Shown here: positions 3,613 through 16,623 of the stretch, piece after piece
Numbering within the stretch: the first letter of the stretch is position 1
Layout: each line of letters starts with the position of its first letter
Assembly (NCBI GenBank): GCA_043767805.1
Contig: JAYUGC010000035.1
Coordinates: forward strand, 1 to 16,623
DNA: 16,623 nucleotides
Reading direction: 5' to 3'
Source of the DNA: Pseudomonadota bacterium
GTDB lineage: Bacteria > Bdellovibrionota > FAC87 > UBA2466
The notes under the pieces: model-generated
Told to the model about the DNA's origin: nothing
Databases searched by the model: none
What the model saw: only the letters and a program-made list of their open reading frames with translations
Translations under genes and position numbers: made by a program

Positions 3613-3628
3613 TGGCACCGAACCTGCA
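3613..3628 (+). promoter_or_regulatory. Sigma54 (-24/-12) promoter of the polysaccharide operon
   Basis: TGGCAC-CGAAC-CTGCA matches TGGCAC-N5-TTGCW with exact GG/GC spacing. It lies about 70 nt before ATG 3700. Confidence 0.7.
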
Positions 3629-3699
3629 CAAGCTTAAGTCCAGTCAGTGCTTGCGGCGGTTCAAACGACGAGGACCAAACCGGAAGCTGGGGGGACGGT

Positions 3700-4368
3700 A
3701 TGAACCAATATTTCTTGCGCAACGCGCAGGCCATTCGCTCAAACTATTCCCTGTCCTTCGAGTTCGAGTCCAAACCTACTTTCTCGCTACGGCAGCTGGC
3801 CATCGACTCCATGCAAGGTTTGATGGCGCTGACGCTCCTAGCCCTCTCGAGCCCCGCTCTCTGGCTTTGCTTTCTCGCCATCAAGCTGACCTCGCGGGGA
3901 CCCGCGCTCTACAGCCAGGAACGAGTCGGTAAGGACGGCAGAATTTTTAAAATCTATAAGCTCCGGTCCATGCGCCTCGACGCCGAGGCGCAGACCGGCC
4001 CGGTGTTGTCCTGGCGCAAGGACCCTAGAGTCACGCCGCTGGGCAACTTCCTGAGAAAGAGCCACCTCGACGAGCTCCCGCAGCTTTGGAACGTCATTCA
4101 AGGCGACATGCGCCTCATCGGCCCGCGCCCCGAGCGACCTTACTTCGTGAACCGCTTCCGGGAAGAGGTCAGAAATTACCGCGCGCGCGAGCAGGTAAAG
4201 CCCGGCATCACGGGACTCGCGCAAGTCTGCTGCGACTACGATGCGAGCCCCGAGGAAAAGCTCGAGTTCGACTTGCTCTACATCCGGCACCGGCACTCGG
4301 TACCCATCTACTTTTTGATTATTTACTACACTGCGAAAAAGGTTCTGTTCGCGTCGTCGGTTTCGTGA
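3700..4368 (+). CDS. Priming phosphoglycosyl transferase (bacterial sugar transferase domain, WcaJ/WbaP C-terminal type)
   Basis: YSQERVGKDGRIFKIYKLRSM, DPRVTPLGNFLRKSHLDELPQLWNV, GPRPERP, VKPGITGLAQV and EKLEFDLLYI motifs. One N-terminal hydrophobic helix. GGGGGA SD. Confidence 0.93.
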   Translation: MNQYFLRNAQAIRSNYSLSFEFESKPTFSLRQLAIDSMQGLMALTLLALSSPALWLCFLAIKLTSRGPALYSQERVGKDGRIFKIYKLRSMRLDAEAQTGPVLSWRKDPRVTPLGNFLRKSHLDELPQLWNVIQGDMRLIGPRPERPYFVNRFREEVRNYRAREQVKPGITGLAQVCCDYDASPEEKLEFDLLYIRHRHSVPIYFLIIYYTAKKVLFASSVS

Positions 4369-4383
4369 GGGGACCTTACTAAA

Positions 4384-5247
4384 GTGGGCAAAGTAGCTCT
4401 CAGCATAGACGTGGAAGATTGGTTCTGCGTTCGCAACATGGGTGGCCACATCTCTCCCCATGATTGGAACGGGTTTGAGTTCCGCGTGCGCGTGGGGCTC
4501 GATTTCATTTTGAAGGAGCTCGATCAGCGCGGCATCAAGGCGACTTTCTTCATGCTGGCCTGGGTCGCGGAAAAATGCCATTCTATCGTCGCGGAATTGA
4601 ACCGGGCCGGCCATGAGATCGCAAGCCATGGTTACAACCACCGGCCTCTCGACGAGATGAGCCCTCTCGATTTCCGGGAAGACGTAAAAGCCTCGCTCTG
4701 CATTTTATCCGCGCAGAGCTCGACTCCCATCCTGGGTTACCGCGCTCCCAGCTTTTCCATCACGGAGAAGACCACCTGGGCCCTCGATGTCCTGAGAGAG
4801 CTCGGCTTCGCCTACGACAGCAGCATTTATCCGATTCATCACCCGAACTACGGCATTCCGGACTTTCCGAAGGAGCCGACTCAAGTCTCTGGAATTCTCG
4901 AGCTCCCCATGAGCACCGTGAATGTTTTCGGAGTGACCTTGCCCATCTCGGGCGGTGGCTATTTCCGCCTGTATCCTTACGCGCTCTCCAAGAGACTCAT
5001 CCAAAGAGCGCAACGCCAGGGCGATGTGATCTTGTACTTCCACCCGTGGGAGTTCGACGAAGGACAACCGAGACTGAAGCTACCGGCCTTGCGGCGCTTC
5101 CGCCACTACGTCGGCCTTGGCAAGAACCGCGCGAAATTCCGGCGTCTGCTCGATGATTTTTCGTTCTGCCCCATGAAGGACCTGATGGGAGGAGCAGCGG
5201 ACGCTAAACGTGAAACGTACCAGCAGAGGGACCTATGGAAATCTTGA
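4384..5247 (+). CDS. Polysaccharide deacetylase (CE4; XrtA/PEP-CTERM-associated, DUF3473-containing type)
   Basis: SIDVEDWF, HEIASHGYNH, GYRAPSFSI, YDSS, GGGYFRLYP and YFHPWEFD..QPR motifs. GTG start. Confidence 0.92.
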   Translation: MGKVALSIDVEDWFCVRNMGGHISPHDWNGFEFRVRVGLDFILKELDQRGIKATFFMLAWVAEKCHSIVAELNRAGHEIASHGYNHRPLDEMSPLDFREDVKASLCILSAQSSTPILGYRAPSFSITEKTTWALDVLRELGFAYDSSIYPIHHPNYGIPDFPKEPTQVSGILELPMSTVNVFGVTLPISGGGYFRLYPYALSKRLIQRAQRQGDVILYFHPWEFDEGQPRLKLPALRRFRHYVGLGKNRAKFRRLLDDFSFCPMKDLMGGAADAKRETYQQRDLWKS

Positions 5248-6047
5248 AAAAACATTTACTCGCCGTCTCGACGGTAATCCTATTTGTCGTGAGCGCTTCC
5301 GTTTACGATTTCCTGGCGCCGGAGCAGTACGAAGTCACCAGCCGGGTCACCGTCCACCGCTCGCAGATAGAAGCCCCTAACCTCTCCACCGAAGAATCGA
5401 AGAACCGGTGGATTTGGGTGAGAGACGGAAACGCCATCAAGGACTCGCTCCTTTCTCAAGATCTCTTGAGCTCGATTCTGGCCAAGAGCGAATTACTTTC
5501 CCGTCGGTATGAGGAGTTTAAAGCCGAGAACGACGCCATCATCCGGGAATCGCTCAAACGCGGGCTGGTGGATGCGGACATCAAGATTCAGTTTCTTTCG
5601 GAGTTCCGCAAAGCCATCGACGTCGACTACTTGGGCGGCGATGCCTTCACCTACGTTATCACCGTGCGGGACAAGTCTCCCGTGCTGGCAAAAGAAGTGA
5701 ATAGCGTGCTCGTGGAGAAGCTCAGGTCTCTGGTCGTCGAGGAGACTAAGGTCTCTTACGAGCAATCCCTCGCCGCCTTAGAGCTCGAGCTTAGAAACAA
5801 TACAGCACCCAAAATTCGGGCTCACCTCGCGGAAACCTATCGGGGCCTCCTCACCTCGAAGGTACTCTTTAATGCGAGTAGCGATCGAAGAGTGGAAGTC
5901 GTTCAGGCTCCCTCTATTCCCTTTTCGCCCATCTGGCCCAAGATCGACCGCCTTTTGATTTTAGCTCTCGTCGCGGGTCTCGCTCTCGGTCTCCTTTTGG
6001 AATACGTGCTCGCCTGGCCGAAGCACCAAGAACTGCAGACGGCGTAA
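5235..6047 (+). CDS. Wzz-like polysaccharide co-polymerase / chain-length determinant (no tyrosine-kinase domain)
   Basis: N-terminal TM helix, helical periplasmic region, and Pro-rich VVQAPSIPFSPIWPK before a Gly-rich C-terminal TM (LALVAGLALGLL). Operon context. Confidence 0.75.
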   Translation: MEILKKHLLAVSTVILFVVSASVYDFLAPEQYEVTSRVTVHRSQIEAPNLSTEESKNRWIWVRDGNAIKDSLLSQDLLSSILAKSELLSRRYEEFKAENDAIIRESLKRGLVDADIKIQFLSEFRKAIDVDYLGGDAFTYVITVRDKSPVLAKEVNSVLVEKLRSLVVEETKVSYEQSLAALELELRNNTAPKIRAHLAETYRGLLTSKVLFNASSDRRVEVVQAPSIPFSPIWPKIDRLLILALVAGLALGLLLEYVLAWPKHQELQTA

Positions 6048-6052
6048 TAGAA

Positions 6053-7333
6053 ATGGAGCAAACGGCACTCATCCAGAGACCGGGGATCGCGGAGCTCACC
6101 AGAGCTTTCGGATCTTTGAACATGACCCCGGTCATGTGCCTTTTCGCCTGTCTGACTCTAAGTGCGGCCCACCTCGAAGTCTCGATGCTGACCCACATGG
6201 GTCTCGAGCTCATCCTGGTAGGTCTCCTTTGCTCCTTCTATCTGCCCACTCTCTTTCAAGCGAACGCCACCGCCGATCGGTACGGCGTTGCCCGCATCCT
6301 GACCTGTTGCCTTCTGATGCTCTCGGCTCCACTCCTCTCCTCGTTAGCCAATGGAGCGCGGCTCGAAATCTTGATGAACCCCGAGTTCCGAAGCTGGGCG
6401 AAAGCGCTTCTCGTCTTGCCGTTGATGCCTTGGCTCTGCCGAACCGCCCGGCGAAGAGAGTCGCTGCTGGACGCCCTCGTCTTCGGGGCGGCCGCCTTCG
6501 CCCTCATCGTCTTTTACCGCTTTTACGTTTTGGGCGAGATGCGCGAAGTCGACGAACGGCCGAAACTTCATGTTAAGAACGGCGATCCGAACTTCATCTG
6601 CGTCATCTTCGCGGTGGCGTTACCTTTCGTGCTCTACAAAATCCAGAGCGCCTACCAAGCGGGCAAGCGGTTCGCGCTCGTTTGGTATGCCATCTGTTTT
6701 GCGCTTTTTGCGGCCTGCGTAATCATCACCGAATCGAGAATGGGGTTAATCTCGCTGCTCGCCGGCGTGGTCGTTCTGATTCTGACCATCCCGGTTCAAA
6801 ATCGTAAGCTCAAGATCGCTTTGGCCGCGGCTTTCTTTATACTCGTCGGCTCCACGGTACTCGGCGGACGTGTGGCCGATCGTTTCAAGTCCATGGACGA
6901 CGAGTCCAATCGCGAGCGTATCAAGTCACTCGTGACGGGCGCGCAGATGTTCGTGCGCCGGCCGGCGTTCGGCTTTGGCTGGGGCACGAGCCCGAAGCAC
7001 TTCTACGAGATCACGGGGCACGGCCGGTTGATGTCGGAAGCCCGCCCTCTGTCAGTGCATAACACTTTCCTTCAGCTCATGAGCGAGTTGGGGATGATGG
7101 GCCTCTTCGCGTACTTGAGCTTGTACCTGACCGTCTTGGTCAGCATCTTGAACGCCCTTCGCGTTGACCGCCGTCTGGGTTGCTTCTGTCTCGGGGCCTT
7201 TGTCATCCTGAGCATGAATCTCACTACCCTTCCCCTTCAGGGAAAAGATTTCATCCTGCTCTACTTCGGAGTGCTCCTGACTCTCTCTCTCGGAGCGACC
7301 AATGCGGCCCGCGAAAAGGAGGAGGCCGCATGA
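6053..7333 (+). CDS. O-antigen ligase family / Wzy-like polymerase
   Basis: Multi-TM protein with GDPN, TESRMG, PAFGFGWG and VHNTFLQLMSELGMMG motifs. Confidence 0.88.
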   Translation: MEQTALIQRPGIAELTRAFGSLNMTPVMCLFACLTLSAAHLEVSMLTHMGLELILVGLLCSFYLPTLFQANATADRYGVARILTCCLLMLSAPLLSSLANGARLEILMNPEFRSWAKALLVLPLMPWLCRTARRRESLLDALVFGAAAFALIVFYRFYVLGEMREVDERPKLHVKNGDPNFICVIFAVALPFVLYKIQSAYQAGKRFALVWYAICFALFAACVIITESRMGLISLLAGVVVLILTIPVQNRKLKIALAAAFFILVGSTVLGGRVADRFKSMDDESNRERIKSLVTGAQMFVRRPAFGFGWGTSPKHFYEITGHGRLMSEARPLSVHNTFLQLMSELGMMGLFAYLSLYLTVLVSILNALRVDRRLGCFCLGAFVILSMNLTTLPLQGKDFILLYFGVLLTLSLGATNAAREKEEAA

Positions 7334-8502
7334 CGTCTTTCTTCTGGATCTGTTTCTTCCTCATTTTGACGAACTATCTGCTCTTTCCGCTTTTCGTCAT
7401 CGCGCTCGCTCGCTTCGTGCGAAGAGACATTCGCAAAGGGCGCATCCGGCCGGACGTAACCCTCATCATCTCGGCTTACAACGAGGCCGCGATCATCATG
7501 GCCAAGCTTCAAAATTGCCTCGAGCTCGACTACCCGAGAGATCACCTCCAAATCATCGTCGTCTCGGACGGCTCGACGGACCGGACCCCGGATTTGGTCG
7601 AGGCCTTCATGAGAGACAACAGCGGTGCCCGGGTGATGGGACTTCATCGCAACGAGCGCCGCGGAAAAGCTTCCGCCATGAATCATGGCGTTGCCGCAGC
7701 TTGCGGCGAGATCCTCGTTTTCTCCGATGCCAATACGAGCTACCACAAGGACGCCCTCCTCCACCTCGTCGAGAACTTCAGTGACGCCACCGTGGGCGGC
7801 GTATCAGGTCGTAAAGCAATTCTGAAGGAAAAAGAGCGGGCGAGCTCCTTGGGCGACAGGCTCTTCTGGACTTTCGAAGCGGCTCTCAAACGGAGCGAGA
7901 GCCTCGTGGGCTCCATTCCGACGGCGGACGGCGAAATCTTCGCCATCCGCGCGAGTCTCTACCACCCCTTGCCGCAGGGAACGATTAACGATGATACCGC
8001 GATCACTTTCGACATCGTCGAGGCGGGACTGCGCGTCGTTTACGACCCTCTCGCCGTCTCTGAAGAGTCGGCTTCCTTCACGCTCAGAGAAGACATGGCA
8101 GTGAAGGCCCGCATGGTGTACGGCGGTTATCAAAGCCTCGCCCGCTACCACCGGCGTCTCCTTCCTCCGCGCACCTTCTTCGCCTTTCAGTTCTTTTGCC
8201 ACAAGACGCTGCGCCATTGGATGCCCTTTCTCCTCATCGGGCTTTTCGCGTCCAATCTCTTCGTTCACGGCTACTTCTACGCCGGGGTCTTCTGGGCTCA
8301 GGTGACCTTTTATCTCGCCGCCCTCGCCGGCGCCGCGGCGCTTGGCGCTGGCCGGCCGCTCAAGCCGCTCTACCTGCCCCTCTACTATTGCTCGATGAAT
8401 CTGTCTGCGGTGTCGGGGCTCGTGCACTTTTTGAAGGGCCGGTCCGTCAACGAAATTTGGACGAAAGCGGAAAGGTCGGAAGCATGGAAGAGACATTTCT
8501 AG
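7330..8502 (+). CDS. Glycosyltransferase family 2, membrane-anchored
   Basis: IISAYNE, VVSDGSTDRT, RRGKASAMN, FSDAN (DxD), INDD and C-terminal TMs. Start re-called to ATG 7330 (ATGA overlap with the upstream stop, GGAGG SD). Confidence 0.92.
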   Translation: MTSFFWICFFLILTNYLLFPLFVIALARFVRRDIRKGRIRPDVTLIISAYNEAAIIMAKLQNCLELDYPRDHLQIIVVSDGSTDRTPDLVEAFMRDNSGARVMGLHRNERRGKASAMNHGVAAACGEILVFSDANTSYHKDALLHLVENFSDATVGGVSGRKAILKEKERASSLGDRLFWTFEAALKRSESLVGSIPTADGEIFAIRASLYHPLPQGTINDDTAITFDIVEAGLRVVYDPLAVSEESASFTLREDMAVKARMVYGGYQSLARYHRRLLPPRTFFAFQFFCHKTLRHWMPFLLIGLFASNLFVHGYFYAGVFWAQVTFYLAALAGAAALGAGRPLKPLYLPLYYCSMNLSAVSGLVHFLKGRSVNEIWTKAERSEAWKRHF

Positions 8503-9494
8503 TTACCGGAGGCGCTGGGTTCATCGGGTCCAACTTGGTGGAGCTCTTAATCGAGCAAGGGCACCGGGTGCGGGTTTTGGACAACTTCTCGACGGGGCAT
8601 CTGGCCAACCTCGCTGAGTTCGAGGGTGAATTGGAAATCGTGGAAGGCGACGTTACGCAGGCCGAGGATTGCCACCGCGCCATGAAGGGTGTTACGCGCG
8701 TCGTCCACCTCGCGGCCGAAGTCTCGGTGGCGCGCTCCATCGGCTCGCCCGTGGCGACCAATGGAACGAATGTCTCGGGTACCTGCGAGATTTTGGAAGC
8801 GGCCAAAGAAGAAGGCGTGCGGGGCTTCGTGTTTGCTTCCACTTGCGCGGTCTACGGGAACGCCGAAAGCCTTCCCATCGATGAGACCCGGGCGGTACAC
8901 CCGCTCTCGCCGTACGCCGCGAGCAAACTCGCGGCGGAACACTACGTGCGGCTATACCGGCAACTCTACGGTATGCCGTCCGTGGCCTTTCGGCTCTTTA
9001 ACGTCTATGGGCCGAAACAAGATCCTACCTCCGCTTACTCGGGCGTGATCTCCGCCTTCGCCGATCGCCTAGCTCAAGGCACGCCGACGACCATCTATGG
9101 AGACGGAGAGCAAACCCGGGACTTCATCTTCGTGAAAGATGTGGTGAGCGCGTTCGTTTGGGCGGCCTTGAACCCCGAGTTCTTGCATGAATCCGTCTAT
9201 AACCTCGCGACCGGCTCGGCGACCTCGGTCACGCGCTTACACGAGAAACTCGTTCGTCTCGCGGGTGGCGGACCTCCGCCCCTCTTCGCGCCGCAAAGAA
9301 TCGGGGAAGTCAGGCATTCTCTAGGAAAGGCCGAGCTGTACTTGAGCGCGCGGGGCTTGGAAGCTTCCGATCTAGCGACCTTATCCGAAGGATTAGAGAG
9401 GACGGCGCACTGGTTTTTCCCTCGTCCGGCAATGGCGCGCCGAAGTTTTCCCGCTCACGGCACTGCCGCGGCCGGCTTCCTGGTGAGCCAGTGA
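8484..9494 (+). CDS. NAD-dependent NDP-sugar epimerase/dehydratase (UDP-Glc/GlcNAc 4-epimerase-like)
   Basis: LVTGGAGFIGS Rossmann motif, SPYAASK (YxxxK), FNVYGPKQ and GDGEQTRDF. Start re-called to ATG 8484 (MEETFLV). Confidence 0.93.
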   Translation: MEETFLVTGGAGFIGSNLVELLIEQGHRVRVLDNFSTGHLANLAEFEGELEIVEGDVTQAEDCHRAMKGVTRVVHLAAEVSVARSIGSPVATNGTNVSGTCEILEAAKEEGVRGFVFASTCAVYGNAESLPIDETRAVHPLSPYAASKLAAEHYVRLYRQLYGMPSVAFRLFNVYGPKQDPTSAYSGVISAFADRLAQGTPTTIYGDGEQTRDFIFVKDVVSAFVWAALNPEFLHESVYNLATGSATSVTRLHEKLVRLAGGGPPPLFAPQRIGEVRHSLGKAELYLSARGLEASDLATLSEGLERTAHWFFPRPAMARRSFPAHGTAAAGFLVSQ

Positions 9495-10261
9495 AACTCT
9501 TTAGCGTCCTGCTAGCCCTGCTTCTCTCCGTTTCGGCTAGAGCCACATTAAAAGGCAATCTGTCTCTCGAGGAGAGCTATGAGCCTCTCGGCGCCTTGGT
9601 CCGCACTTCCTTGCGAGCACGCATGGAGCAAGCCATCACCCCGTTCGTGTCCCCTTATCTCGCGGCGGGAAATGAGTCGGCCTCTCCTTACCAGTATCCT
9701 TTGCAATTAAATTCAGAGGCGTACCTTTTCGCGGCGCCCGGCGTGAAGCTGAGCCTTGGGAACTTCTCACTCCTCGCCGAGACCCGTTTTCGTAAATTCC
9801 ATATGGAGAATTACGAAGGAGCGCCGCCTCGGGCCTTGGTCGACGTCCAAGGGCTTCTCATTTACGACAACTACTGGGATCACAGGCTTTCAGAAACGAG
9901 CGGCCTTTCTTTATTTGGCGCGGTTTATAGCGAAACCAATTTCACTAGCGCGGATAATGCTAATCTCCTTCATACGACCCTCGTACGGGCCGGCCCGGAG
10001 ATTGTCTTCGTAAAAGGCGGGCACCTCGCGGCTTTCGTGGAGCCAAACTTCGTCGTCGATAGACTGCACCATTATTACAATAACCGCGCGGAGCTCAGAT
10101 TCAGTGGGCGCGTGCGGTACAACGCGGAACCGTTCGTACTAAATCTCACCGTTTCCTATCTCTTCAACCACTATTTCAAAATGAAGTACCTGGAAGAGTA
10201 TCCGCCCCCCGATCGCAACCAAGGCGTTACGGCTAAGCTCACTCTCGCCGTACATTACTGA
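9491..10261 (+). CDS. Hypothetical protein, predicted outer-membrane beta-barrel
   Basis: Signal peptide MKLFSVLLALLLSVSARA, alternating amphipathic strands, and C-terminal aromatic residue (AKLTLAVHY). GTGA coupling to the epimerase stop. Confidence 0.65.
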   Translation: MKLFSVLLALLLSVSARATLKGNLSLEESYEPLGALVRTSLRARMEQAITPFVSPYLAAGNESASPYQYPLQLNSEAYLFAAPGVKLSLGNFSLLAETRFRKFHMENYEGAPPRALVDVQGLLIYDNYWDHRLSETSGLSLFGAVYSETNFTSADNANLLHTTLVRAGPEIVFVKGGHLAAFVEPNFVVDRLHHYYNNRAELRFSGRVRYNAEPFVLNLTVSYLFNHYFKMKYLEEYPPPDRNQGVTAKLTLAVHY

Positions 10262-10991
10262 GACTTCGGCGGGGATTCTTGAAATGGTCGATGATCATCC
10301 CGATCGGCCGCGCGTCGTCGGAGGGATCCGCCGGTAGATTGAGCCGCTCTTGCCTCCAAGGAGCGTAGGGAGGCGCCCCCAAGCGCAGTTTTCCGAGGTA
10401 AGGAGCATAGCCTCCTACCGGAGCAACTAGTCCGAAGTCGACGACCAAGATCTTTCCCGTCGAGTCGATGAGGAGGTTCGCGGGGGTAATATCGGAATGC
10501 ACCCACCCGTTCTCTCCGGTCTTTTGCAAGATCCCTTGAGCTTTCCCTAGCTGGGCCGCGATGTGGTCGGCGTCAAAGGCGCCCGTCTCCCCGCCGCGCA
10601 CGACGGCTTTGACGGACTTAGGACTCTCCCCGTCGTAGAGCATTGTGGTGAGGATGAGCATTCCTTCCGGCCCGGGGTGCGCTCTCATGAAAAGACCGTC
10701 TGGATCGACGGGCTCAATCAATTTCGAGACCGCAACTTCGTGCTGAAGGGATTGCCGACCGCGGGGCTCCTCCCCCAAAGGCACTTTGATGGCCATGGGA
10801 ACCGGAGTGTCTTTCGTCAGATATACCGCCGCGAAAGACCCTTCTCCCGTCAGCACCAGATTGTTTCCAAAATGCTCGATTAGGGTGGCGTACCCCTTAA
10901 GGCAAAGGGCAGCGGGGCGCTCCGGCTCGGCAAAGAGCGGCGTGGCCCACAAAACCATTCCTAAAATGGCCGTGACGGACAATCGAAGCAT
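10239..10991 (-). CDS. Hanks-type Ser/Thr protein kinase-like protein with N-terminal signal peptide
   Basis: GEGSFAAVY (Gly loop), MAIKV (Lys), QHEV (helix C Glu), HSDITPANLL (catalytic loop), VVDFGL and GAPPYAP. N-terminus MLRLSVTAILGMVLWATPLFA|E. Confidence 0.82.
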   Translation of the reverse strand: MLRLSVTAILGMVLWATPLFAEPERPAALCLKGYATLIEHFGNNLVLTGEGSFAAVYLTKDTPVPMAIKVPLGEEPRGRQSLQHEVAVSKLIEPVDPDGLFMRAHPGPEGMLILTTMLYDGESPKSVKAVVRGGETGAFDADHIAAQLGKAQGILQKTGENGWVHSDITPANLLIDSTGKILVVDFGLVAPVGGYAPYLGKLRLGAPPYAPWRQERLNLPADPSDDARPIGMIIDHFKNPRRSLSNVRRE

Positions 10992-11087
10992 TGGACTCTC
11001 AATATCGCCGTGGACCGCTTGAATACGGCAGAGCTTTTATGTCGCTTGTGGCCACTGGCTGGCATTAGCCATAATGAGCCCTACCTC

Positions 11088-12395
11088 ATGCGTTTTTTGT
11101 TCTTACTAAGTTTCCTTTGCCTATCCGCGCGCGCGGAGCTGGCGAGCCCCGAGACATGGGCGGCGTTGAAGGCTTTCCACGGCTAATTCCGCATGGGCCT
11201 CGAAGTGGAAGCGGTTGGCCCGCCCATGGAGCGCGTGCTTCCTTACTTGGAGTACGAAGCGCTCATGGAAAGTCTCCCCGCAAGCTACTTCAACTGGCGA
11301 CCGAACCACGCGGACGCGTATCTAGAGCGAGAGGGAAACTTCGAAACGCTTTCGCCGGAGTTGCAAACAAAGCTTCTCGAAATGAAGCGGCCCAACGAGA
11401 CGATTCAGTCCGCCTGGACGAGACTGCCTTACGAAACTCAGGTCGCGGCCATTAAGCCCTCTCGCATGCCGCTTAGCGTGCTCTCTTACAAGCTCGCCAA
11501 CCTCGCGGCCGCGCTGAAAGTTCGCGAAGACGCCCCGCCCGCTTTCAAAGAGATGATGAGCCGGTTCGCCCTTGAGCCAGACGCCGTTAGCGGTCCGGCT
11601 ATCTTCGAGTTCAAGCATAACGAGGACATCGCCATGACCGATCCGGTCAAGTACCTCGCCGATCTGGCCTCGCTCTCAGGGTTCCTCGGTATCCAAAGCA
11701 TGCTCGACGATCCGCTCACCAGAAAGCCAGGGATCTATTCGTATCACGTGCATATCAGCAAGAAAGACGGGCCTATCGTGGAAAGCGTGCTGCAGGCTCT
11801 CAATTTCAAGCGCATGTTGGATCTCGCCAAACTTAATTCCGCAGCGGCCTTTAGTGAAACGAGCACGGTGGCGTACCAAACGGATATCAGGCGCAAAGGG
11901 CTCATCCGCCGTATCGCCGAAGATCGGGTCGAACTCAGATACCACGACGGAAATCCGGTCGACGAGCTGCGCTCGACCCTTGAGCTCTTGAGTCTTCCGG
12001 AGAAAGAAGCGGCCTCCCGCCTGAGTGCCCAGGTGGCCGAGCAGTTCACGCCCGAGCTCATCGAAAAAATCACCGAGATACGGCCTGACGTGGTCGTTGA
12101 TTACCTCCTTCATATTTACCCTCACCTCACGACCGAACAGAAGATCTTCAACGGCACTTTGCTCGCTGCGGTTCAGTCGGGAATCAGGAACGGGGGTAAA
12201 GAGAGCTCGGTGAAACGCCGTTTCGTGAAATCCTTGTACGCGGGCATGGCCTCTCCCGGCGTTTCCAAAGAGGCCAAAAGCATAATGAAAACCCTGGCCG
12301 CCCAAACCGATCCCTCGGGCGTCCCCTGGGCTCAGAACTTCGTGAGCGGCGTCTTCCAAAGTTGTGCCCTCGCCTTCAAGTCCCTCACCCGCTAA
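11088..12395 (+). pseudogene. Secreted amidoligase / COOH-NH2 ligase-fold-like protein interrupted by in-frame TAA at 11184-11186 (intact ORF 11193-12395)
   Basis: From ATG 11088 the frame reads MRFLFLLSFLCLSARA|ELASPETWAALKAFHG*FRMGLEVE, in frame with the 400-aa ORF. Motifs GLEVE, EPD, FEF, YHVHIS and VELRY occur in the order expected for glutamine-synthetase/GCS-fold ligases. Confidence 0.6.
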
Positions 12396-12407: not shown

Positions 12408-13190
12408 CATTGCTGTCCGGTTGGACGCGGTAGGTAAAGGTTGAAGAAGGCCTGAAACCAAGGCAACACAGGGTTTTCGACCAAGAAAATACTGTGCCGG
12501 AGGTTTCAGGCCGTAAGCCAAAATAACGTGTTCGAGCAAATGATCAAGTTGGTTTCTCGCCACCAGTTCGAGGGAGCGGTAGCTCACTTTGAAGGGGATC
12601 GGGGGGTTCGAACGCTCGACTGCTGGACGTGGTTCGGCGCGCTTCTATTCGGCCAACTCAGTGGCCACGACTCCATACGAGCCATCGAGCGTGTTTTCTG
12701 CCACGGCAATCGGCGCATGCAACGCATGGGCTTTTCCACTGTATGTCGCAGTACTCTTGCCGACGCCAATCAGAGCCGGCCTCTGGGGATCTTGGAGCGC
12801 ACTTACGCTGGTGTTCTCTCCCATGCCAAGCACATTTGTCCCGAACGCCACGGCTTTCGCTTTGAGGGCGAGGTCCGGGCGCTAGACTCCTCAGTCATCG
12901 ACCTGTGCCTATCTTTGAGTCCTTGGGCGAGCTTTCGCAAGGGAAGGTCTGGCGTGAAGCTGCACACGGCGATAGACCTAGCGGGAGATTTGCCGGACTT
13001 TGTCGTCATTACACCCGCCTTGCGCCACGACGTTCCTATTGCCCGGCAGTACTTGCACCCCAAGGCAGGTTCCACGGTGATTTTCGACCGCGGCTACTGG
13101 AGCGCAGACTTTCTCAACCAGCTCAACCGCGACAAGGTCTTCTTTGTCACCCGAGCTAGAAAAAACAATCGCTTCAAAGTCCTCGAAAGG
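12408..13190 (+). mobile_element. IS4-family insertion sequence, left part only
   Basis: Begins CATTGCTGTCCGGTT, resembling termini of DUF4372-type IS4 elements, followed by the transposase. No matching right end or target duplication found. Confidence 0.7.
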
Positions 13191-13289
13191 GGCTCACGTC
13201 TAACTGATATCTACTTTCATATAAGTCTTCAAATACTTAACCACTATTGCATAGTACTACTAGGTAGTATATACTACTTAGTAGTATGA
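12513..13289 (+). pseudogene. IS4-family transposase (DUF4372 + DDE), 3'-truncated
   Basis: VFEQMIKLVSRHQFE, LLFGQLSGHDSIRAIE, RSTLADAN, LDSSVIDL, GVKLH, FDRGY and FFVTR motifs. Similarity stops near 13190, before the catalytic Glu region. The remaining tail is read-through of the TA promoter. Confidence 0.88.
13247..13286 (+). promoter_or_regulatory. Sigma70 promoter and double palindromic operator of the TA operon
   Basis: -35 TTGCAT (13247-13252), 17-nt spacer, -10 TATACT (13270-13275). Two TACTAC-N3-GTAGTA palindromes at 13255-13269 and 13272-13286. Confidence 0.85.
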
Positions 13290-13624
13290 GACGCACCTTC
13301 GTGGAAACCTCACTGTTTGCGAGGCGAGTAAATCAGGAGGGCGCCGAAGTTCTGAAGGAGATTCAAGCGGAGATCCTAAAGAATTCTGAAGGCGGCCGAA
13401 TTATTCAGGGTACCGGAGGGCTACGGAAACTCCGAGTAGGCGACGAGGGCCGCGGAAAGGGCAAGCGCGGTGGCTTCAGGGTGATCTACTTGGACCTGCC
13501 ACACATCGAGCGCACGCATCTTCTGGCCCTCTACGACAAGGACGAAAAAGACGATATCTCGAAAGACGAGAAGAAAGCTCTGAAGGCTCTGGTGGAGCAG
13601 ATTAAAAAGGAAGCACGATTATGA
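13286..13624 (+). CDS. higB: Type II toxin, RelE/HigB family
   Basis: FVETSLF, G.IIQGTGGLRKLR, GKGKRGGFRVIY and LYDKDEKDDIS motifs. Toxin-first order with ATGA overlap to the HTH gene. Confidence 0.9.
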   Translation: MRRTFVETSLFARRVNQEGAEVLKEIQAEILKNSEGGRIIQGTGGLRKLRVGDEGRGKGKRGGFRVIYLDLPHIERTHLLALYDKDEKDDISKDEKKALKALVEQIKKEARL

Positions 13625-13953
13625 AAAAGACAAAACTTGGCCAGGAACTGATCGCCAGTCTCACCGAGGCCGTTGACTACGAGCGCGGTAAGAAAAAACT
13701 GCGTACTTCCACGCTTGAAATTCCCGAGCCCGCTAAACACTGGCGCAAGGACCAGATCGCGCGTCTTCGCAAAGAGCGATTCGGCGTAAGCCAGCCCGTA
13801 TTCGCTTCCCTTCTCAGCGTGACCGCATCGACGGTTCGAGCATGGGAGCAAGGGCTAAAAACACCATCGGGTGCCGCTAGCCGGCTTCTAGAGCTTGCAG
13901 AAATCGAGCCTGAAGTCTTTCAACGTCTGGCCAAAGACCGCCGTTCCGCCTAA
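13621..13953 (+). CDS. higA: Type II antitoxin, HigA-like Xre/Cro HTH
   Basis: ELIASLTEAV N-terminus and HTH VSQPVFASLLSVTASTVRAWEQGLKTPSGAASRLL. Confidence 0.9.
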   Translation: MKKTKLGQELIASLTEAVDYERGKKKLRTSTLEIPEPAKHWRKDQIARLRKERFGVSQPVFASLLSVTASTVRAWEQGLKTPSGAASRLLELAEIEPEVFQRLAKDRRSA

Positions 13954-13960
13954 CGAGGCA

Positions 13961-14143
13961 CTAAAAGTTGATAAACTTCGCCATCAGAACGACGGAAAGC
14001 ACGAGAGAAATGAAAAAGACTCCAAGGGTCGAAGCGGCGAATCTCATCAAGCCGATCTGAATGTCCTTTGCCTCTGCCAGCAAATTAGGAACCCCTAAAC
14101 CCTCTTTGAACGCATCGTCATCATCCTTTAAAAGCTGGGTCAA
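13961..14143 (-). CDS. Possible small membrane protein or 3' gene remnant
   Basis: 60 aa with one C-terminal hydrophobic helix. TTG start with no clear SD. Stops 7 nt from the higA stop. Confidence 0.3.
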   Translation of the reverse strand: MTQLLKDDDDAFKEGLGVPNLLAEAKDIQIGLMRFAASTLGVFFISLVLSVVLMAKFINF

Positions 14144-14233
14144 GGCAGTGTCTTGTGTAGCTTGCGGGAAAGCGGAGTTTCCAATTATTAGCGAGTTTGC
14201 CCGCTGCCTTTGAAGTCGAGCAATTTGATTCGT

Positions 14234-14268
14234 AAAAAACTCGTAAGGCTCACTTGAGCTACGAGTTT
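14234..14268 (-). terminator. Intrinsic-terminator-like hairpin
   Basis: AAACTCGTA-ag-GCTCA-ct-TGAGC-TACGAGTTT. The A6 run at 14234-14239 gives a U-tract on the minus strand. Confidence 0.55.
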
Positions 14269-14333
14269 GAAGATGCGTTCATGCGATGCATTGATCGAAT
14301 TGACGATCATTTCGCTCGCGCTTTGTTGGTTAG

Positions 14334-15478
14334 ATGCCATTTCTTATGTGCCTTATCGGGGGCGTGGTTACCTCACTTATGGTTCGGTACCACTGGGATT
14401 ATTTCTTCCTCCTTAAATTCGGCATCGTATCCCTCTACTCCGTCGCCCTTTGGAATAGCACCAAGTACCACGTTGCCATGCATTTCTTCGGCTTTGTCGG
14501 TTGGGCATTCTACCGAGCGGTGGCGAAGATCGGAATGCAGAACCGAGCGACAGAAGTCTTTGAAAATGCCGGGCTCACGAGTCGCAAGGCGCAACTACCC
14601 AAACTACTCGCCCATGAGTTAGCCGAGGATGGAATCCACCGAATGCGGATTGCGCGCTCTGGTCTTGCCAGGCAAGACTTCGAGAAAGCCAAGGGTAGCA
14701 TGGCATCCTCGATGGGGGTCTACGTCAATATTATCGAGGAGAACCGCGTTCGCGGAACCGTCGATATCACTTACAGCAGGACTCCCATTCCTAATTCCGT
14801 AGAGCTAGATTTCGCTGATCTCGGGCGCCTTCGTGAAGGGGAGTTCTATATCGGCGCAGGATATGCGGGATTGAAAACTTTCAGCCTCTCTCTGAGAGCC
14901 CCCACCTCCTCATCGCTGGTGAAACCGGAAGTGGAAAGTCGACGTTTCTCCACCAGTTCATTACCGGCCTTTACCGGAATGACCCCCGGATAGAAATGAC
15001 GCTCATTGACCTGAAGGGCGGTCTTGAGTTCACCGCGTTCAGCTCCCTTCCCGGCGTCACTGTGGTCACAGATCGAGAAGAGGCCTCAAAACGTCTAACA
15101 GTCTTTCCTGAAATCATTGGACGACGAATGGGAACCCTTAGGCAGAAGCACGCCAAGAGCATTGAGGAACTCTACGGCGAAAAGAGGAAGTTCGTGAATC
15201 GCGATGTCGTTATCATTGATGAGGTGGCGGAAATGTTTCTCCCTTCGGAGGATGACGCCGCCAAAGCGATTCTAAGTCAAATTGCGCGACAAGGCCGGGC
15301 GCTGGGGCTTCACCTGGTTGTGGCCACCCAGAGGCCGGATACTCGCGCCCTCGATCCTCAGATCAAAGCAAACCTTACCGGTGTGCTGTGTTTCAAAATG
15401 CTGAATGACGCTTCAAGCATCACGGTGCTCGGAAACGGGAAGGCAACCGAACTACCATCCGCACGGCCTCCGCCTTGA
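14334..15478 (+). pseudogene. FtsK/SpoIIIE-domain ATPase with N-terminal TM helices, frameshifted and 3'-truncated
   Basis: Removing one CT from (CT)4 at 14886-14893 joins ORF 14334 to SESPHLLIAGETGSGKST (Walker A), LIDLKGGLEF, VVIIDEVAE (Walker B) and GRALGLHLVVATQRP. Similarity ends after LGNGKATELPS near 15460. Confidence 0.88.
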
Positions 15479-15556
15479 ACTCCGCAGAATGGTTTCTATA
15501 AGGGCGTTTCTCGGACACGGTTACCTCCAACATCGAAGTATACCGCCTAACTTGGA

Positions 15557-15581
15557 GTGTCCATTTTACTGAGGAAGGTCA
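15557..15581 (+). mobile_element. Lone IS3-family-like terminal inverted repeat (right end)
   Basis: The reverse complement TGACCTTCCTCAGTAAAATGGACAC fits the IS3-family 5'-TG...GGACAC terminus pattern. Preceded by GCCTAA. Confidence 0.55.
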
Positions 15582-15582
15582 G

Positions 15583-15782
15583 CGACAGCAGTCCCACAAA
15601 ATTCCTACCGAACTTCTGGGATATTTGAGGAAAGAGCGCGAAAGGGTGACTAGCGTTTTTGTGGCCGCTTCGTCCGAGAGCGAAATGCTCTCGTATGAAT
15701 GGTACTCACGGACGCTGACCCGGTATTGCAAGGACTTGCGATTCCGTTGGTCGAAACCCACGGGCTACGGCATTCAACAGCG
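15583..15782 (+). pseudogene. Tyrosine recombinase (integrase) internal fragment
   Basis: RQQSHKIPTELLGYLRKERERVTSVFVAASSESEMLSYEWYSRTLTRYCKDL, a 1-nt frameshift near 15739, then IPLVETHGLRHSTA (HxLRH box II). No downstream LGH/Tyr region. Confidence 0.72.
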
Positions 15783-15822
15783 CCGCTTGCCGGAAAAATG
15801 TTGAGTCTTTGTCCATGCTCAT
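15775..15822 (-). pseudogene. abiEii: AbiEii nucleotidyltransferase toxin, 5' stub
   Basis: ATGA overlap with the abiEi stop. MSMDKDSTFFRQAALL resembles AbiEii N-termini, then the frame runs into antisense integrase DNA and stops at 15706 with no KGGT/DxD motif. Confidence 0.55.
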
Positions 15823-16601
15823 CCCTCTCCAGTTTCACCCAACGGAGGGAGCGTGATCTGAAATTCTTTATCCAGCTTACATCCTGGTACGACGACCCGT
15901 TTGCCGGTGCCGAGGTTCAGTTTCGAGGTGTTCAATTTTGAGTACCAGGGGTGGTTGCATCGCTTAGCAAGCGCCAGAAATAACCGTTTCACTTTTACCG
16001 AGCGGCAAGCCTTTAGAAGTGAAAAGGCCAAATCAGGTCTTAGGGCAGTCAGCCCCTCCATCAATTGAAAAGCCTCCTCTATCCCCTGTTCTTTCGGCGC
16101 GAGGTACAACGCCTCCATTATCGCCCTTTCCGGAGTCGAGGTCTGGACTTCGAAATTTTGGAATGAATGGGAGGTGAGTCCGAGAGAGTGAGTTCCCCCA
16201 AACAGCTTGGGGCCGAAGTACTGGATCCGACGTCCCCAGGGATGCCGTAAATACCAAGGCGGCAGCCTCACGTTCTTTTGGCCAAAGAGGTATACGACCG
16301 CACCCTTTCCGGCCGGAACGAAGTGGCCAAAGCCCTTTAGTTCCAACGCCGTTTTCGCCGCCACGTGAACGGGGAGTTTCAATTGCGTTTGTATGGCGAA
16401 TAGCGCCCCCGTCCAATCGACGTTGTCATTCAACCGAGCGTAGGCCCCGGGCCCCACCCGACGCAACCATCCCGACTTTTCATATTCGAAGGCAAGCTGT
16501 TGATATACCCCATGTTTTTCCAGCCACGGGAGCGCCGCAACGGTCCCCGCTGGCCAGACATGAAGTAAATGGTTTATTTTGGAGTGTAATTCACCAGCCA
16601 T
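15819..16601 (-). CDS. abiEi: Type IV TA antitoxin, AbiEi family transcriptional regulator
   Basis: SKINHLL..WP.G, Y.KSGWL.RVG.GAY, HVAAKTALELKG..H, LP.W, STPERAIMEAL, GL..LRP, C.SVKVKRLFL and LGTGKR motifs. Confidence 0.88.
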   Translation of the reverse strand: MAGELHSKINHLLHVWPAGTVAALPWLEKHGVYQQLAFEYEKSGWLRRVGPGAYARLNDNVDWTGALFAIQTQLKLPVHVAAKTALELKGFGHFVPAGKGAVVYLFGQKNVRLPPWYLRHPWGRRIQYFGPKLFGGTHSLGLTSHSFQNFEVQTSTPERAIMEALYLAPKEQGIEEAFQLMEGLTALRPDLAFSLLKACRSVKVKRLFLALAKRCNHPWYSKLNTSKLNLGTGKRVVVPGCKLDKEFQITLPPLGETGEG

Positions 16602-16623
16602 ACTTGTGATTTTAGCACCAATT

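What the first reader, a model, noticed from the sequence alone, without database searches (positions are those of the whole stretch)
10239..10991. Compact Hanks-type kinase with a cleavable signal peptide: candidate exported effector
Seen: a Sec-like leader (…WATPLFA|E) directly before the kinase domain, with no later TM or sensor domain. The catalytic loop is non-RD (HSDITPAN, Lys replaced by Thr), APE is replaced by APW, and the C-lobe is very short. Known: bacterial Hanks kinases normally keep the catalytic domain in the cytoplasm because the periplasm lacks ATP. Inference: it works in another cell's ATP-containing compartment (prey or host) or on a non-protein substrate.
Basis: partly seen in the sequence, partly recalled or inferred. 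Interest (0 to 1): 0.7.

Follow-up and report, generated by a model that had tools for sequence, protein, structure and literature searches.

The report
Export-signal-bearing truncated Hanks-type protein kinase
A predatory-type bacterium (Bdellovibrionota) encodes a small, apparently active protein kinase that carries an export signal, and so belongs to a rare family of kinases that seem built to work outside the cell's own cytoplasm, where kinases are not expected.

Summary
Window 10239-10991 (minus strand) is a real 250-aa gene. It has a Sec-type leader (about residues 1-21), then a Hanks-type kinase core that ends about 24 residues after helix F, so helices G-I are missing.

The ATP-binding and catalytic residues are present: K69, E85, D167, N172 and D185.

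It belongs to a rare group of 16 short kinases. By a crude script, 13 of the 16 show all three leader features. A cysteine sits at residues 19-39 in 15 of 16. The nearest solved relatives are PknA, PknB and StkP. The six other kinase ORFs in this genome have hydrophilic N-termini.

The genome is Bdellovibrionota. Only 3 of 401 genomes of the phylum carry the family. The gene lies just past the end of synteny with a same-genus genome. Its divergent neighbour comes from a second leader-bearing family with a weak glutamine-synthetase-like (ATP-dependent ligase) fold.

Best reading (0.55): an exported, catalytically competent minimal kinase that acts outside the producer's cytoplasm, possibly in prey. 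Export, activity and target are all inferred, not shown. No signal-peptide predictor was available. I rate it a new variant of a known kind, interest 0.6.

The parts
10239..10991 (-). Whole gene: 250-aa pre-protein plus stop codon (10239-10241). Leader followed by a truncated Hanks-type kinase.
10929..10991 (-). Residues 1-21, Sec-type leader: n-region MLR, hydrophobic core LSVTAILGMVLWA, c-region TPLFA. Candidate signal-peptidase sites lie after A21 (LFA|E) or A16 (LWA|T).
   Evidence: The model shows a detached helix at residues 7-16 with pLDDT 53-55. This is a heuristic reading; no SignalP-type tool was available.
10902..10904 (-). Cys30, the only cysteine in the protein, just before the N-terminal helix (residues 31-41) of the mature chain.
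   Evidence: a Cys at residues 19-39 in 15 of 16 family members. It is the sole Cys of the predicted mature chain in 9 complete members.
10824..10847 (-). Residues 49-56, glycine-rich loop GEGSFAAV.
   Evidence: G51 invariant in 16 of 16
10785..10787 (-). K69, the beta-3 lysine (MAIKVP).
   Evidence: Lys in 15 of 16
10737..10739 (-). E85, the helix-C glutamate (LQHEV).
   Evidence: at least 90% conserved
10476..10499 (-). Residues 165-172, catalytic loop HSDITPAN. It is non-RD, has Thr at D+2, and keeps the catalytic Asp167 and Asn172.
   Evidence: Asp in 15 of 16, Asn in 15 of 16, Lys at D+2 in 5 of 16
10431..10439 (-). Residues 185-187, DFG. It is followed by the family-typical activation segment LVAPVGGYAPYLG.
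   Evidence: DFG Asp in 16 of 16
10356..10364 (-). Residues 210-212, APW in place of APE.
10314..10316 (-). D226, the helix-F aspartate. Only 24 residues follow it, so helices G-I are absent.
10992..11087 (.). Divergent intergenic region between the kinase gene and the neighbour's leader ORF. GAGAG lies 4 nt before the kinase ATG.
   Evidence: No sigma-70-like site found (0 found, 0.5 expected).
11088..12395 (+). Divergent neighbour. A leader-like ORF (MRFLFLLSFLCLSARA...) ends at an in-frame TAA (11184-11186). The 400-aa ORF (11193-12395) follows, with a weak glutamine-synthetase/PafA/Dop-like fold. It is listed as context and is not shown to act with the kinase.
10262..10279 (.). End of synteny with the same-genus genome G001. 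The polysaccharide cluster up to about 10279 is shared; the kinase gene and everything after it are not.

Best explanation
The gene encodes a pre-protein whose N-terminal leader sends it through the Sec translocon. Signal peptidase I probably cuts after A21, less likely after A16. The released mature protein of about 229 residues has a short N-terminal helix bearing a lone cysteine, a complete kinase N-lobe, and a C-lobe that stops after helix F.

The mature protein keeps the residues that hold ATP-Mg (K69, E85, N172, D185) and the catalytic base (D167). It is a non-RD kinase, so it should not need activation-loop phosphorylation. It lacks helices G-I, the usual docking platform for protein substrates. 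I therefore expect substrates to be read by the activation and P+1 segment, which is unusually conserved within this family, or through a partner protein.

It therefore acts outside the producer's cytoplasm. Because the producer is a Bdellovibrionota bacterium, my preferred compartment is a prey cell whose ATP is accessible. The producer's own periplasm or cell surface, using low-micromolar ATP, comes second.

Shown here: the gene, the fold, the motifs, the truncation, the family, the leader-like N-termini, the genomic setting. Inferred: export, cleavage, catalysis, compartment, target.
For: Gene and fold:
- Pfam Pkinase is over its cut-off.
- The family profile matches PknA, StkP and PknB at E 3e-22 to 1e-15, from the N-lobe to helix F.
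- The AlphaFold model has pLDDT 87.4. Foldseek and VIA match protein kinases, for example PknB at Z 16.1, rmsd 3.3, 189 aligned residues.

Catalytic residues in 16 family members:
- beta-3 Lys 15 of 16
- helix-C Glu at least 90%
- catalytic Asp 15 of 16
- Asn 15 of 16
- DFG Asp 16 of 16

Leader, by my own heuristic script:
- 13 of 16 members have a Lys/Arg before the hydrophobic core, an 8-residue core with mean hydropathy of at least 2.3, and a small-x-small site after it.
- 2 are partial (P0136, P0083) and 1 has none (P0028).
- The core starts within residues 1-16 in all 16.
- Among 7 ordinary kinases used as controls, 6 have a core below 2.3; the seventh scores 2.34 at residue 25.
- Net charge of the 15 residues after the uncharged stretch is 0 or negative in 13 of 16, which fits N-in, C-out.

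Same genome: the other 6 kinase-domain ORFs have hydrophilic N-termini, and any membrane segments come after the kinase domain.

One lineage: the 16 form one side of a branch (SH-aLRT 95.7) against the 40 best-ranked other hits.

The paucity of cysteine, with one N-proximal Cys, suits an exported protein.

The neighbour's family also carries leaders on an ATP-dependent-type fold. This fits an island of exported ATP-using enzymes.

Taxon: RpoB is 84% identical to a Pseudobdellovibrionaceae MAG.

ATP outside the cytoplasm is documented in a review (PMC7432876, passages read).
Against: - No signal-peptide or topology predictor was available, and my script is crude.
- In the window protein the -3 residue of the preferred site is Leu, and the charge bias across the leader is weak (+1 before it, 0 after it).
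- The D+2 Lys that contacts the gamma-phosphate in Ser/Thr kinases is kept in only 5 of 16 members. One member has HSE instead of HSD (G155). One has Arg for the beta-3 Lys and DPG for DFG (P0083). Phosphotransfer may therefore not be the selected activity in all members.
- No conserved neighbour, no outer-membrane secretion signal and no partner was found. The three available contexts differ.
- Only 3 of 401 Bdellovibrionota genomes have the family, and one member is labelled Elusimicrobiota. A general predation role is therefore unlikely.
- In the 137-row tree the group needs 3 changes and the backbone is weakly supported.
- An earlier unchecked note of this scan (e1-1337370) argued that signal-like leaders on kinases in another phylum may not mean export. 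Two ATP-dependent folds with leaders side by side could be read that way too.
- No RNA run holds the region, so expression is unknown.
Confidence: 0.55

Rival explanations
1. The leader is an uncleaved signal-anchor. The kinase is tethered to the outer face of the inner membrane and acts on envelope or periplasmic targets of the producer itself.
For: The uncharged stretch is 18 residues long in the window protein and 21-26 in several relatives, long enough to span a membrane. Leu at -3 is a poor signal-peptidase site. P0083 has a 34-residue hydrophobic N-terminus.
Against: Most relatives have classic short cores followed by small-x-small sites such as VSA|F, SFA|N, AMA|A, SQA|F, VRA|G, VFA|G, INA|A and SLA|K. 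A Pro or Gly 4-6 residues before the site, as in TPLFA, is typical of cleaved leaders; that rule is recalled, not tested.
Confidence: 0.15
2. The kinase is cytoplasmic. Either translation starts downstream (M12), or the hydrophobic N-terminus is not an export signal, for example a reversed anchor or an amphipathic membrane-association helix.
For: The general rule is that Pkinase domains are cytoplasmic (PMC11032199, passages read). The charge bias is weak in the window protein. An in-frame ATG exists at codon 12.
Against: The M12 ATG has only an AGGA abutting it with no spacer, whereas M1 has GAGAG 4 nt upstream. Leader-like N-termini recur in independently called homologues at 20-50% identity. 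The n-region is positive in 14 of 16. The six ordinary kinases of the same genome lack any such segment.
Confidence: 0.12
3. The protein is exported but is not a phosphotransferase. It would be a kinase-fold protein used as an ATPase, a nucleotide or ligand sensor, a binding module, or for another chemistry.
For: The D+2 position is variable (Lys in 5 of 16). Single members have degenerate sites (HSE in G155; K-to-R and DPG in P0083). The size and the missing C-terminal subdomain recall RIO and Bud32: Rio1 matches at Z 16.1 over nearly its whole chain, and Bud32 gives weak NCBIfam hits. That RIO and Bud32 act largely as ATPases is recalled, not tested here.
Against: The five residues needed for ATP-Mg binding and catalysis are each kept in at least 15 of 16 members. 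In sequence the family lies with true protein kinases (PknA, PknB, StkP), not with atypical kinases.
Confidence: 0.12
4. It is a cytoplasmic anti-phage defence kinase of the PD-T4-6 or Stk2 type, sitting in a defence island.
For: PADLOC gives its best hit to a PD-T4-6 model at E 7.6e-9, 33.6 bits. Weaker hits go to mad6 and Stk2. The downstream region holds AbiEi, RelE/HTH and an SspH/HerA-like fragment.
Against: The PADLOC score equals the generic Pfam Pkinase score and covers only residues 49-190. The leader does not fit a cytoplasmic sensor of phage infection. The other two genomic contexts of family members show no defence genes. The gene has genome-typical GC (0.591 against 0.579), while the IS and toxin-antitoxin part is at 0.54.
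Confidence: 0.05

Closest known systems
Bacterial Hanks-type Ser/Thr kinases PknA, PknB (Mycobacterium) and StkP (Streptococcus)
   Same: They are the best sequence relatives among solved structures: profile E 2.9e-22 for PknA, 2e-19 for StkP, 3e-16 for PknB. The alignment runs from the glycine loop to helix F. The fold is the same, with PknB at Z 16.1. They share the glycine loop, VAIK Lys, helix-C Glu, HxD...N, DFG and the helix-F Asp.
   Different: Those kinases have the domain at a leaderless N-terminus in the cytoplasm, followed by a membrane segment and outside sensor domains. They are RD kinases with a full C-lobe (helices G-I) and APE. Here a leader precedes the domain, nothing follows it, the loop is HSD with Thr at D+2, APE is APW, and the chain ends after helix F.
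OspG / NleH type III effector kinases
   Same: They are compact kinases delivered out of the producer to act in another cell's cytoplasm (review PMC9950578, passages read). That they lack the C-terminal helical subdomain is recalled, not tested here.
   Different: They are secreted by type III systems without a Sec leader. They do not appear among the 50 rows shown by the structure search, which does not exclude similarity. No sequence match was seen. The present protein keeps a long, conserved activation segment.
RIO and Bud32 minimal atypical kinases
   Same: They are of similar size, and the similarity covers the whole chain: A. fulgidus Rio1 1zp9 at Z 16.1, rmsd 3.2, 189 aligned, chain residues 12-244 of 245. 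Bud32 gives weak NCBIfam hits at E 5e-5 to 0.05, far below the cut-offs.
   Different: They are cytoplasmic with no leader. In sequence the present family is nearer to true Hanks kinases.
Fam20C / VLK secretory-pathway kinases of animals
   Same: They are kinases with signal sequences that phosphorylate targets outside the cytosol. This is an analogy only (search listing and abstracts of PMC7948968, PMC5865150 and PMC9016620).
   Different: They belong to unrelated atypical kinase families in eukaryotic Golgi or extracellular space. No sequence or top-ranking structural match was seen here.
PD-T4-6 defence kinases (PADLOC)
   Same: Generic kinase-domain similarity (33.6 bits). An accessory region with defence genes lies nearby.
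   Different: The score is no better than the generic Pfam model and the coverage is partial. The present protein has a leader.

Membership tests
Hanks-type (eukaryotic-like) protein kinase, Pfam PF00069 | Score over the curated Pfam cut-off | tested here: met
   32.8 bits against 31.7, matching profile positions 7-147 of 263 only. The pass is marginal.
Hanks-type (eukaryotic-like) protein kinase, Pfam PF00069 | Glycine-rich loop, beta-3 Lys, helix-C Glu | tested here: met
   GEGSFAAV, K69, E85
Hanks-type (eukaryotic-like) protein kinase, Pfam PF00069 | Catalytic loop HRDLKPxN: Asp and Asn, plus Arg (RD) and the D+2 Lys | tested here: inconclusive
   HSDITPAN. Asp167 and Asn172 are present. 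Arg is replaced by Ser (non-RD) and Lys by Thr. Non-RD kinases are accepted members. Loss of the Lys is unusual for Ser/Thr kinases; that statement is recalled.
Hanks-type (eukaryotic-like) protein kinase, Pfam PF00069 | DFG and an extended activation segment ending in APE | tested here: inconclusive
   DFG is present and the activation segment is present and aligned to PknA's. APE reads APW here, and mostly S-P-N in relatives.
Hanks-type (eukaryotic-like) protein kinase, Pfam PF00069 | Helix-F Asp followed by the helix G-I subdomain with the subdomain XI Arg | tested here: not met
   D226 is present, but the chain ends 24 residues later. Model residue 250 aligns with PknB residue 220. I therefore file it as a truncated derivative of the family, not a canonical member.
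Sec-exported protein with a cleavable signal peptide | Positive n-region, hydrophobic core of about 7-15 residues, small residues at -1 and -3, no later membrane segment | tested here: inconclusive
   My own heuristic script gives n-region +1, a core hydropathy of 2.41 and candidate sites LFA|E and LWA|T. 13 of 16 relatives meet all three criteria. There is no later hydrophobic window. No trained predictor was available.
Lipoprotein (signal peptidase II substrate) | Lipobox L-[AS]-[GA]-C at the end of the leader | tested here: not met
   The residues before the N-proximal Cys are AAL (window), SGV, NLN, PEN, LIE and so on. The lipobox pattern itself is recalled.
PD-T4-6 anti-phage kinase | Specific match to a PADLOC model over most of its length | tested here: inconclusive
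   Best hit 33.6 bits, protein residues 49-190 on profile positions 18-157 of 292. This is no better than the generic kinase model.
Atypical kinases ABC1/UbiB, APH, Kdo/WaaP | Score over the family cut-off with coverage of the family-specific parts | tested here: inconclusive
   ABC1 scores 28.9 bits (cut-off 22.9), but only on residues 113-191, which is the shared catalytic core. APH scores 21.0, below its cut-off of 23.2. UbiB and Kdo kinase NCBIfam hits are far below their cut-offs. The family profile prefers Hanks kinases.

The most novel reading that the evidence does not exclude
Bacteria possess a lineage of Sec-exported, catalytically active Hanks-type protein kinases, stripped to a minimal core. 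These phosphorylate targets outside the producer's cytoplasm. In this Bdellovibrionota genome the kinase would be a prey-directed effector, encoded beside a second exported ATP-dependent enzyme (glutamine-synthetase/PafA-like). That would point to a class of predator effectors that run on the victim's ATP.
Probability: 0.3. Interest if true: 0.85.

Novelty: new variant of a known kind. Interest (0 to 1): 0.6.

Why it matters
Bacterial protein kinases are taken to work in the cytoplasm because that is where ATP is. A survey of kinase topologies states this explicitly (PMC11032199, passages read).

A conserved family that puts an intact kinase core behind an export signal would have one of two meanings. 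Either bacteria phosphorylate targets in the periplasm or outside the cell, or some bacteria deliver kinases into other cells by a route that starts with Sec. The known effector kinases use type III or type IV secretion instead (review PMC9950578, passages read).

The protein is also a natural minimal Hanks kinase, lacking helices G-I. That is useful for asking what the C-terminal subdomain is for. It is small, has a single cysteine and should be easy to express, so the question is directly testable.

Tried and rejected
Database searches for more members:
- The word-index protein search found only 2 proteins among 715 candidates: the query itself and P0002. With the family profile it added only P0104 and P0152 among 260 hits.
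- With A2 it found no relative in genome contigs (153 stretches) or in metagenome contigs (167 stretches).
- With P0022 it returned 37 loci, but none holds a family member. All have HMM scores of 81 bits or less and are ordinary kinases of up to 2369 aa.

Other look-ups:
- The ESM Atlas listed only generic kinase clusters.
- Earlier-findings look-ups by place and by sequence gave nothing.
- The neighbour protein had no Pfam, NCBIfam, PADLOC or PDB sequence match and no homologue in the large protein database.

Tests of the dimer idea and of monophyly:
- Complex prediction, a homodimer of residues 22-250 meant to test a Cys30-linked dimer, was never accepted. The queue was full and then the tool was withdrawn. 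The dimer idea is untested.
- The AU test of monophyly on the 137-row tree did not finish in three runs.

Weak or uninformative results:
- No RNA holder was listed for the region.
- The promoter scan found 0 sites, and the two terminator-like sites are at chance level.
- The T2SSK family search was uninformative, because the controls also ring in Gram-positive genomes. No T6SS sheath match was found.
- No tRNA and no meaningful repeats flank the gene.

Literature: six searches found no paper describing a Sec-leader-bearing Hanks kinase or an exported kinase of Bdellovibrio. This covers only the held open-access library.

Ideas rejected:
- Lipoprotein: there is no lipobox.
- Tat signal: no twin arginine.
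- Part of the polysaccharide operon: the gene is convergent with it, overlaps its last gene by 23 nt, and is absent from the syntenic cluster in G001.
Full report
**1. What is there**

The minus strand of window 10239-10991 holds an ATG-started ORF of 250 codons. Pfam's Pkinase model matches it just over the curated cut-off (32.8 against 31.7 bits). ABC1 (28.9 bits) and APH (21.0 bits) match only the shared catalytic core. NCBIfam gives weak, sub-threshold hits to many kinase families.

The N-terminus reads MLRLSVTAILGMVLWATPLFAEPERP. Residues 2-20 are the only stretch hydrophobic enough to be a membrane or signal segment.

- GEGSFAAV, the glycine loop
- MAIK69
- HE85
- H165-S-D167-I-T-P-A-N172
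- D185-F-G
- A-P-W (210-212) where APE is expected
- the helix-F Asp at 226

The chain ends 24 residues after D226.

**2. It is a real gene and a real kinase fold**

One protein in the 5.8-billion-sequence collection is 50% identical over 96% of the length (P0002, 242 aa). It has the same build, leader included.

An exhaustive HMMER search of 1.84 billion representatives gave 2801 hits at E <= 0.001, but only 20 at E <= 1e-10. Most are ordinary, long bacterial Ser/Thr kinases. Among the best 150 are about a dozen short proteins (258-310 aa) built like the query.

With an alignment of 13 of these (A1), AlphaFold gave a confident model with pLDDT 87.4 and pTM 0.81. In that model residues 1-20 are a detached, low-confidence helix.

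Foldseek and the Foldseek-independent VIA search both return protein kinases:
- Foldseek: more than 500 matches, E about 1e-8.
- VIA: Z 15-17 for 50 tied rows, for example PknB 1mru at Z 16.1, rmsd 3.3, 189 aligned residues, model 33-250 on chain 3-220; and Rio1 1zp9 at Z 16.1.

The family profile finds PknA (E 2.9e-22), StkP and PknB as the nearest solved sequences. The alignment runs from the glycine loop through the activation and P+1 segment to helix F, and there the query ends. The protein is therefore a Hanks-type kinase that has lost helices G-I, not an atypical kinase.

Contigs of further sequencing runs from the same study carry 10419-12047 (two runs) and 10361-10885 (a fourth run) without a single difference.

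**3. The family**

I assembled 16 members:
- the window protein
- P0002, P0006, P0010, P0022, P0028, P0069, P0078, P0091, P0136, P0104, P0152, P0130
- P0083, which is a gene of genome G012
- a second, divergently placed gene in G012
- one gene in G155

All clusters are singletons from metagenomes. The only named one is a hypothetical protein of an Elusimicrobiota MAG.

Conservation in the 16-row alignment:

| Feature | Members keeping it |
|---|---|
| beta-3 Lys | 15 of 16 |
| helix-C Glu | at least 90% |
| catalytic Asp | 15 of 16 (G155 has Glu) |
| Asn | 15 of 16 |
| DFG Asp | 16 of 16 |
| helix-F Asp | 16 of 16 |
| Lys two residues after the catalytic Asp | 5 of 16 |

Twelve of the 16 end 13-24 residues after the helix-F Asp. 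The segment after DFG (consensus A-A-P-V-G-G-Y-A-P-x-L-G...R-x-G...Y-x-S-P-N-Q...P-A-x-F-x-D-D) is unusually conserved for an activation loop. The APE Glu is replaced throughout. In full kinases this Glu pairs with an Arg in the missing subdomain (recalled), so its loss is what one would expect once that subdomain is gone.

On monophyly there are two results:
- In a tree of the 16 plus the 40 best-ranked other hits, the 16 form one side of a branch with SH-aLRT 95.7.
- In a larger 137-row quick tree the backbone is weak and the group needs three changes. The AU test on that tree did not finish.

I chose the 16 rows by eye for being short and leader-bearing. The tree tests whether they cluster; it does not test whether the trait defines a clade.

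**4. The leader**

No SignalP-type tool was available, so I scored three classic features with a script: a Lys/Arg before the core, a hydrophobic 8-residue core, and a small-x-small site just after it.
- 13 of 16 members have all three. Many have textbook sites: VSA|F, SFA|N, AMA|A, SQA|F, VRA|G, VFA|G, INA|A, SLA|K.
- P0136 and P0083 are partial.
- P0028 has none; its gene call may be short.
- Of seven ordinary kinases from the same search, six have no hydrophobic core. One reaches the threshold, but at residue 25 and across an Asp.

The charge after the leader is neutral or negative in 13 of 16. By the positive-inside rule this puts the kinase domain outside whether or not the leader is cut.

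In the window protein itself the signal is less clean. There is one Arg before the core, the net charge after it is 0, and Leu sits at -3 of the LFA|E site.

The alternative start at codon 12 has only an AGGA touching the ATG. Codon 1 has GAGAG four bases upstream. A start at M12 would also discard a segment that homologues at 20-50% identity retain.

In the window's own genome the six other kinase-domain ORFs all begin with hydrophilic sequence. Where they have membrane segments, these come after the kinase domain. This gene is the only one built the other way round.

A further family trait is a cysteine a few residues into the predicted mature chain:
- It lies at positions 19-39 in 15 of 16 members.
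- It is the only cysteine of the predicted mature chain in nine complete members, including the window protein (Cys30).
- It is not in a lipobox context.

A disulfide-linked dimer is an obvious idea, but the complex-prediction tool was never available, so it is untested.

**5. Setting**

The window is a whole 16.6-kb contig of a 4.5-Mb, 204-contig genome. Its RpoB is 84% identical to that of a Pseudobdellovibrionaceae MAG, with Bdellovibrionales, Bdellovibrio and Halobacteriovorax records among the next rows. The genome is therefore Bdellovibrionota, from sediment metagenomes.

Positions 1-10261 are a polysaccharide cluster: GH26, flippase, sugar transferase, deacetylase, Wzz, Wzy, GT2, epimerase, and an exported 256-aa protein with no family match. 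This cluster is syntenic with a same-genus genome, G001. Synteny stops at about 10279, at the 3' end of the kinase gene. G001 continues with unrelated genes and has no family member.

The kinase gene is convergent with the cluster and overlaps its last gene by 23 nt. Beyond it lie:
- the divergent 400-aa gene
- a DDE transposase
- RelE/HTH
- an FtsK/HerA/SspH-like fragment
- AbiEi at the contig end

The kinase and the 400-aa gene have genome-typical GC (0.591 and 0.574 against 0.579). The mobile part is lower, at about 0.54.

Across 401 genomes of the phylum, only G000, G012 and G155 hold a family member. The other 44 matches at E <= 1e-18 lie in longer open frames, most of about 650-780 aa; I read them as ordinary kinases without inspecting each one. 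G012's P0083 was in the query alignment, so that match is by construction.

The three contexts share no neighbour:
- In G012, two leader-bearing kinases flank a small exported protein.
- In G155, the gene follows lon.

**6. The neighbour**

The 400-aa ORF (11193-12395) has no match in Pfam, NCBIfam, PADLOC or PDB sequences, and no homologue in the big protein collection. It is 27% identical (E 7e-8) to a 726-aa protein of G012.

That protein's relatives occur in 17 of 401 Bdellovibrionota genomes. The 17 loci that I read through are open frames of 527-877 aa, and nearly all show a Sec-like leader followed by the motif F-R-[IM]-G-[M]-E-[IL]-E-L.

In the window the same motif (FRMGLEVE) begins two codons before the ATG at 11193. 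Directly upstream, in the same frame, is a leader-like ORF (MRFLFLLSFLCLSARA...) that is closed by a TAA at 11184-11186. The TAA is identical in the contigs of three runs. The gene is therefore either interrupted by a nonsense codon or now made without its leader.

An 18-row alignment shows invariant E4, E6, E139, H185 and S189, and near-invariant E247. The model has pLDDT 85.9. For residues 1-285, the matches listed by either structure search that cover this N-terminal part are carboxylate-amine ligases, but weakly:
- VIA: Dop Z 6.7, glutamine synthetases Z 6.6-6.3, PafA 5.8, glutamate-cysteine ligase 5.6, YbdK type 5.4.
- Foldseek: YbdK and glutamine synthetases at E 2e-3 to 0.1.

I take this as a probable, not proven, ATP-dependent ligase fold. 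Two adjacent genes from two families that each join an export-type leader to an ATP-dependent enzyme fold is the most suggestive contextual fact. It can be read as an island of enzymes meant for an ATP-containing compartment elsewhere. More cautiously, it can be read as a warning that such leaders may not mean what they usually mean.

**7. How it most likely works**

My best reading (0.55) is that the protein is exported by Sec and its leader is removed. The mature minimal kinase then binds ATP-Mg and transfers phosphate with Asp167 as the base. It would do so without activation-loop phosphorylation (it is non-RD) and without the usual helix G-I docking surface.

Where it acts is inferred only. 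A prey cell is my first choice because of the taxon and the neighbour (about 0.3 absolute). The producer's own periplasm or surface is second. A review reports periplasmic ATP of 24 +/- 3 uM per 10^10 cells and ATP in vesicles of E. coli (PMC7432876, passages read), so the rule that there is no ATP outside the cytoplasm is not absolute.

Rival readings:
- an uncleaved anchor holding the kinase on the outer face of the inner membrane (0.15)
- a cytoplasmic protein with a misread N-terminus (0.12)
- an exported kinase-fold protein that is not a phosphotransferase (0.12)
- a defence kinase (0.05; the PADLOC PD-T4-6 hit of 33.6 bits is no better than the generic kinase score)

**8. Comparison and novelty**

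In sequence it is a derivative of bacterial Hanks kinases. It fails one defining feature of that family, the helix G-I subdomain, so I file it as a truncated variant and not as a canonical member.

In design it resembles minimal kinases (RIO, Bud32, OspG/NleH) and, by analogy only, the animal secretory-pathway kinases.

Six full-text searches found no description of a Sec-leader-bearing Hanks kinase or of an exported Bdellovibrio kinase. [quoted passage not shown]

Earlier unchecked notes of this scan mention leader-bearing kinases in Omnitrophota and Elusimicrobia. They are leads only, and one of them argues against export.

Verdict: a real and unusual gene; a new variant of a known kind; function untested; interest 0.6.

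Noticed in passing
window 11010-12395 (+): The divergent neighbour is a leader-like ORF closed by an in-frame TAA (11184-11186), then a 400-aa ORF starting MGLEVE. Its relatives in 17 of 401 Bdellovibrionota genomes are long proteins (527-877-aa frames in the 17 loci read) with a Sec-like leader and an FR[IM]G[M]E[IL]EL motif. The model's N-terminal 285 residues weakly match only glutamine-synthetase/Dop/PafA/GCL-type ligases (Z 5.4-6.7). The TAA is the same in the contigs of three runs. This looks like an undescribed leader-bearing family with a probable ATP-dependent ligase fold.
   Followed up: partly
L096 (G012:C4:71621-75391), ORFs 2-1009 (-) and 1489-2376 (+): A genome of the same family has two leader-bearing kinases of this group, placed divergently around a 111-aa exported protein. 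One keeps HRD..K (an RD kinase). The other has Arg for the beta-3 Lys and DPG for DFG.
   Followed up: partly
L097 (G155:C2:25860-29522), ORF 1495-2373 (-): This family member has Glu in place of the catalytic Asp (VHSEIAPKN). It lies directly downstream of lon and is convergent with a PA14-like lipoprotein.
   Followed up: no
window 1-10261: Polysaccharide biosynthesis and export cluster: two GH26-like genes, flippase, Bac_transf, deacetylase/DUF3473, Wzz, Wzy_C, GT2, epimerase. It ends with a 256-aa signal-peptide protein that has no family match. G001 holds a 63%-identical counterpart and a weaker (34%) second match. The whole cluster is syntenic with G001:C4.
   Followed up: partly
window 12528-16623: Mobile and defence-type genes: a DDE transposase with DUF4372, a RelE-like toxin plus HTH, a 160-aa FtsK/HerA-type ATPase C-terminal fragment with a hit to SspH (E 2e-20), and AbiEi at the contig end, whose partner is presumably cut off. 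GC here is about 0.54 against 0.579 genome-wide.
   Followed up: no
window 11014-11164: Runs X2 and X3 also hold a 151-nt contig with 14 differences over the neighbour's leader ORF. This is a strain variant or a second copy of that segment.
   Followed up: no
window 13255-13286: A near-perfect 18-nt palindrome (TACTACTAGGTAGTATAT / ATATACTACTTAGTAGTA) at the junction of the transposase and the RelE-like gene.
   Followed up: no
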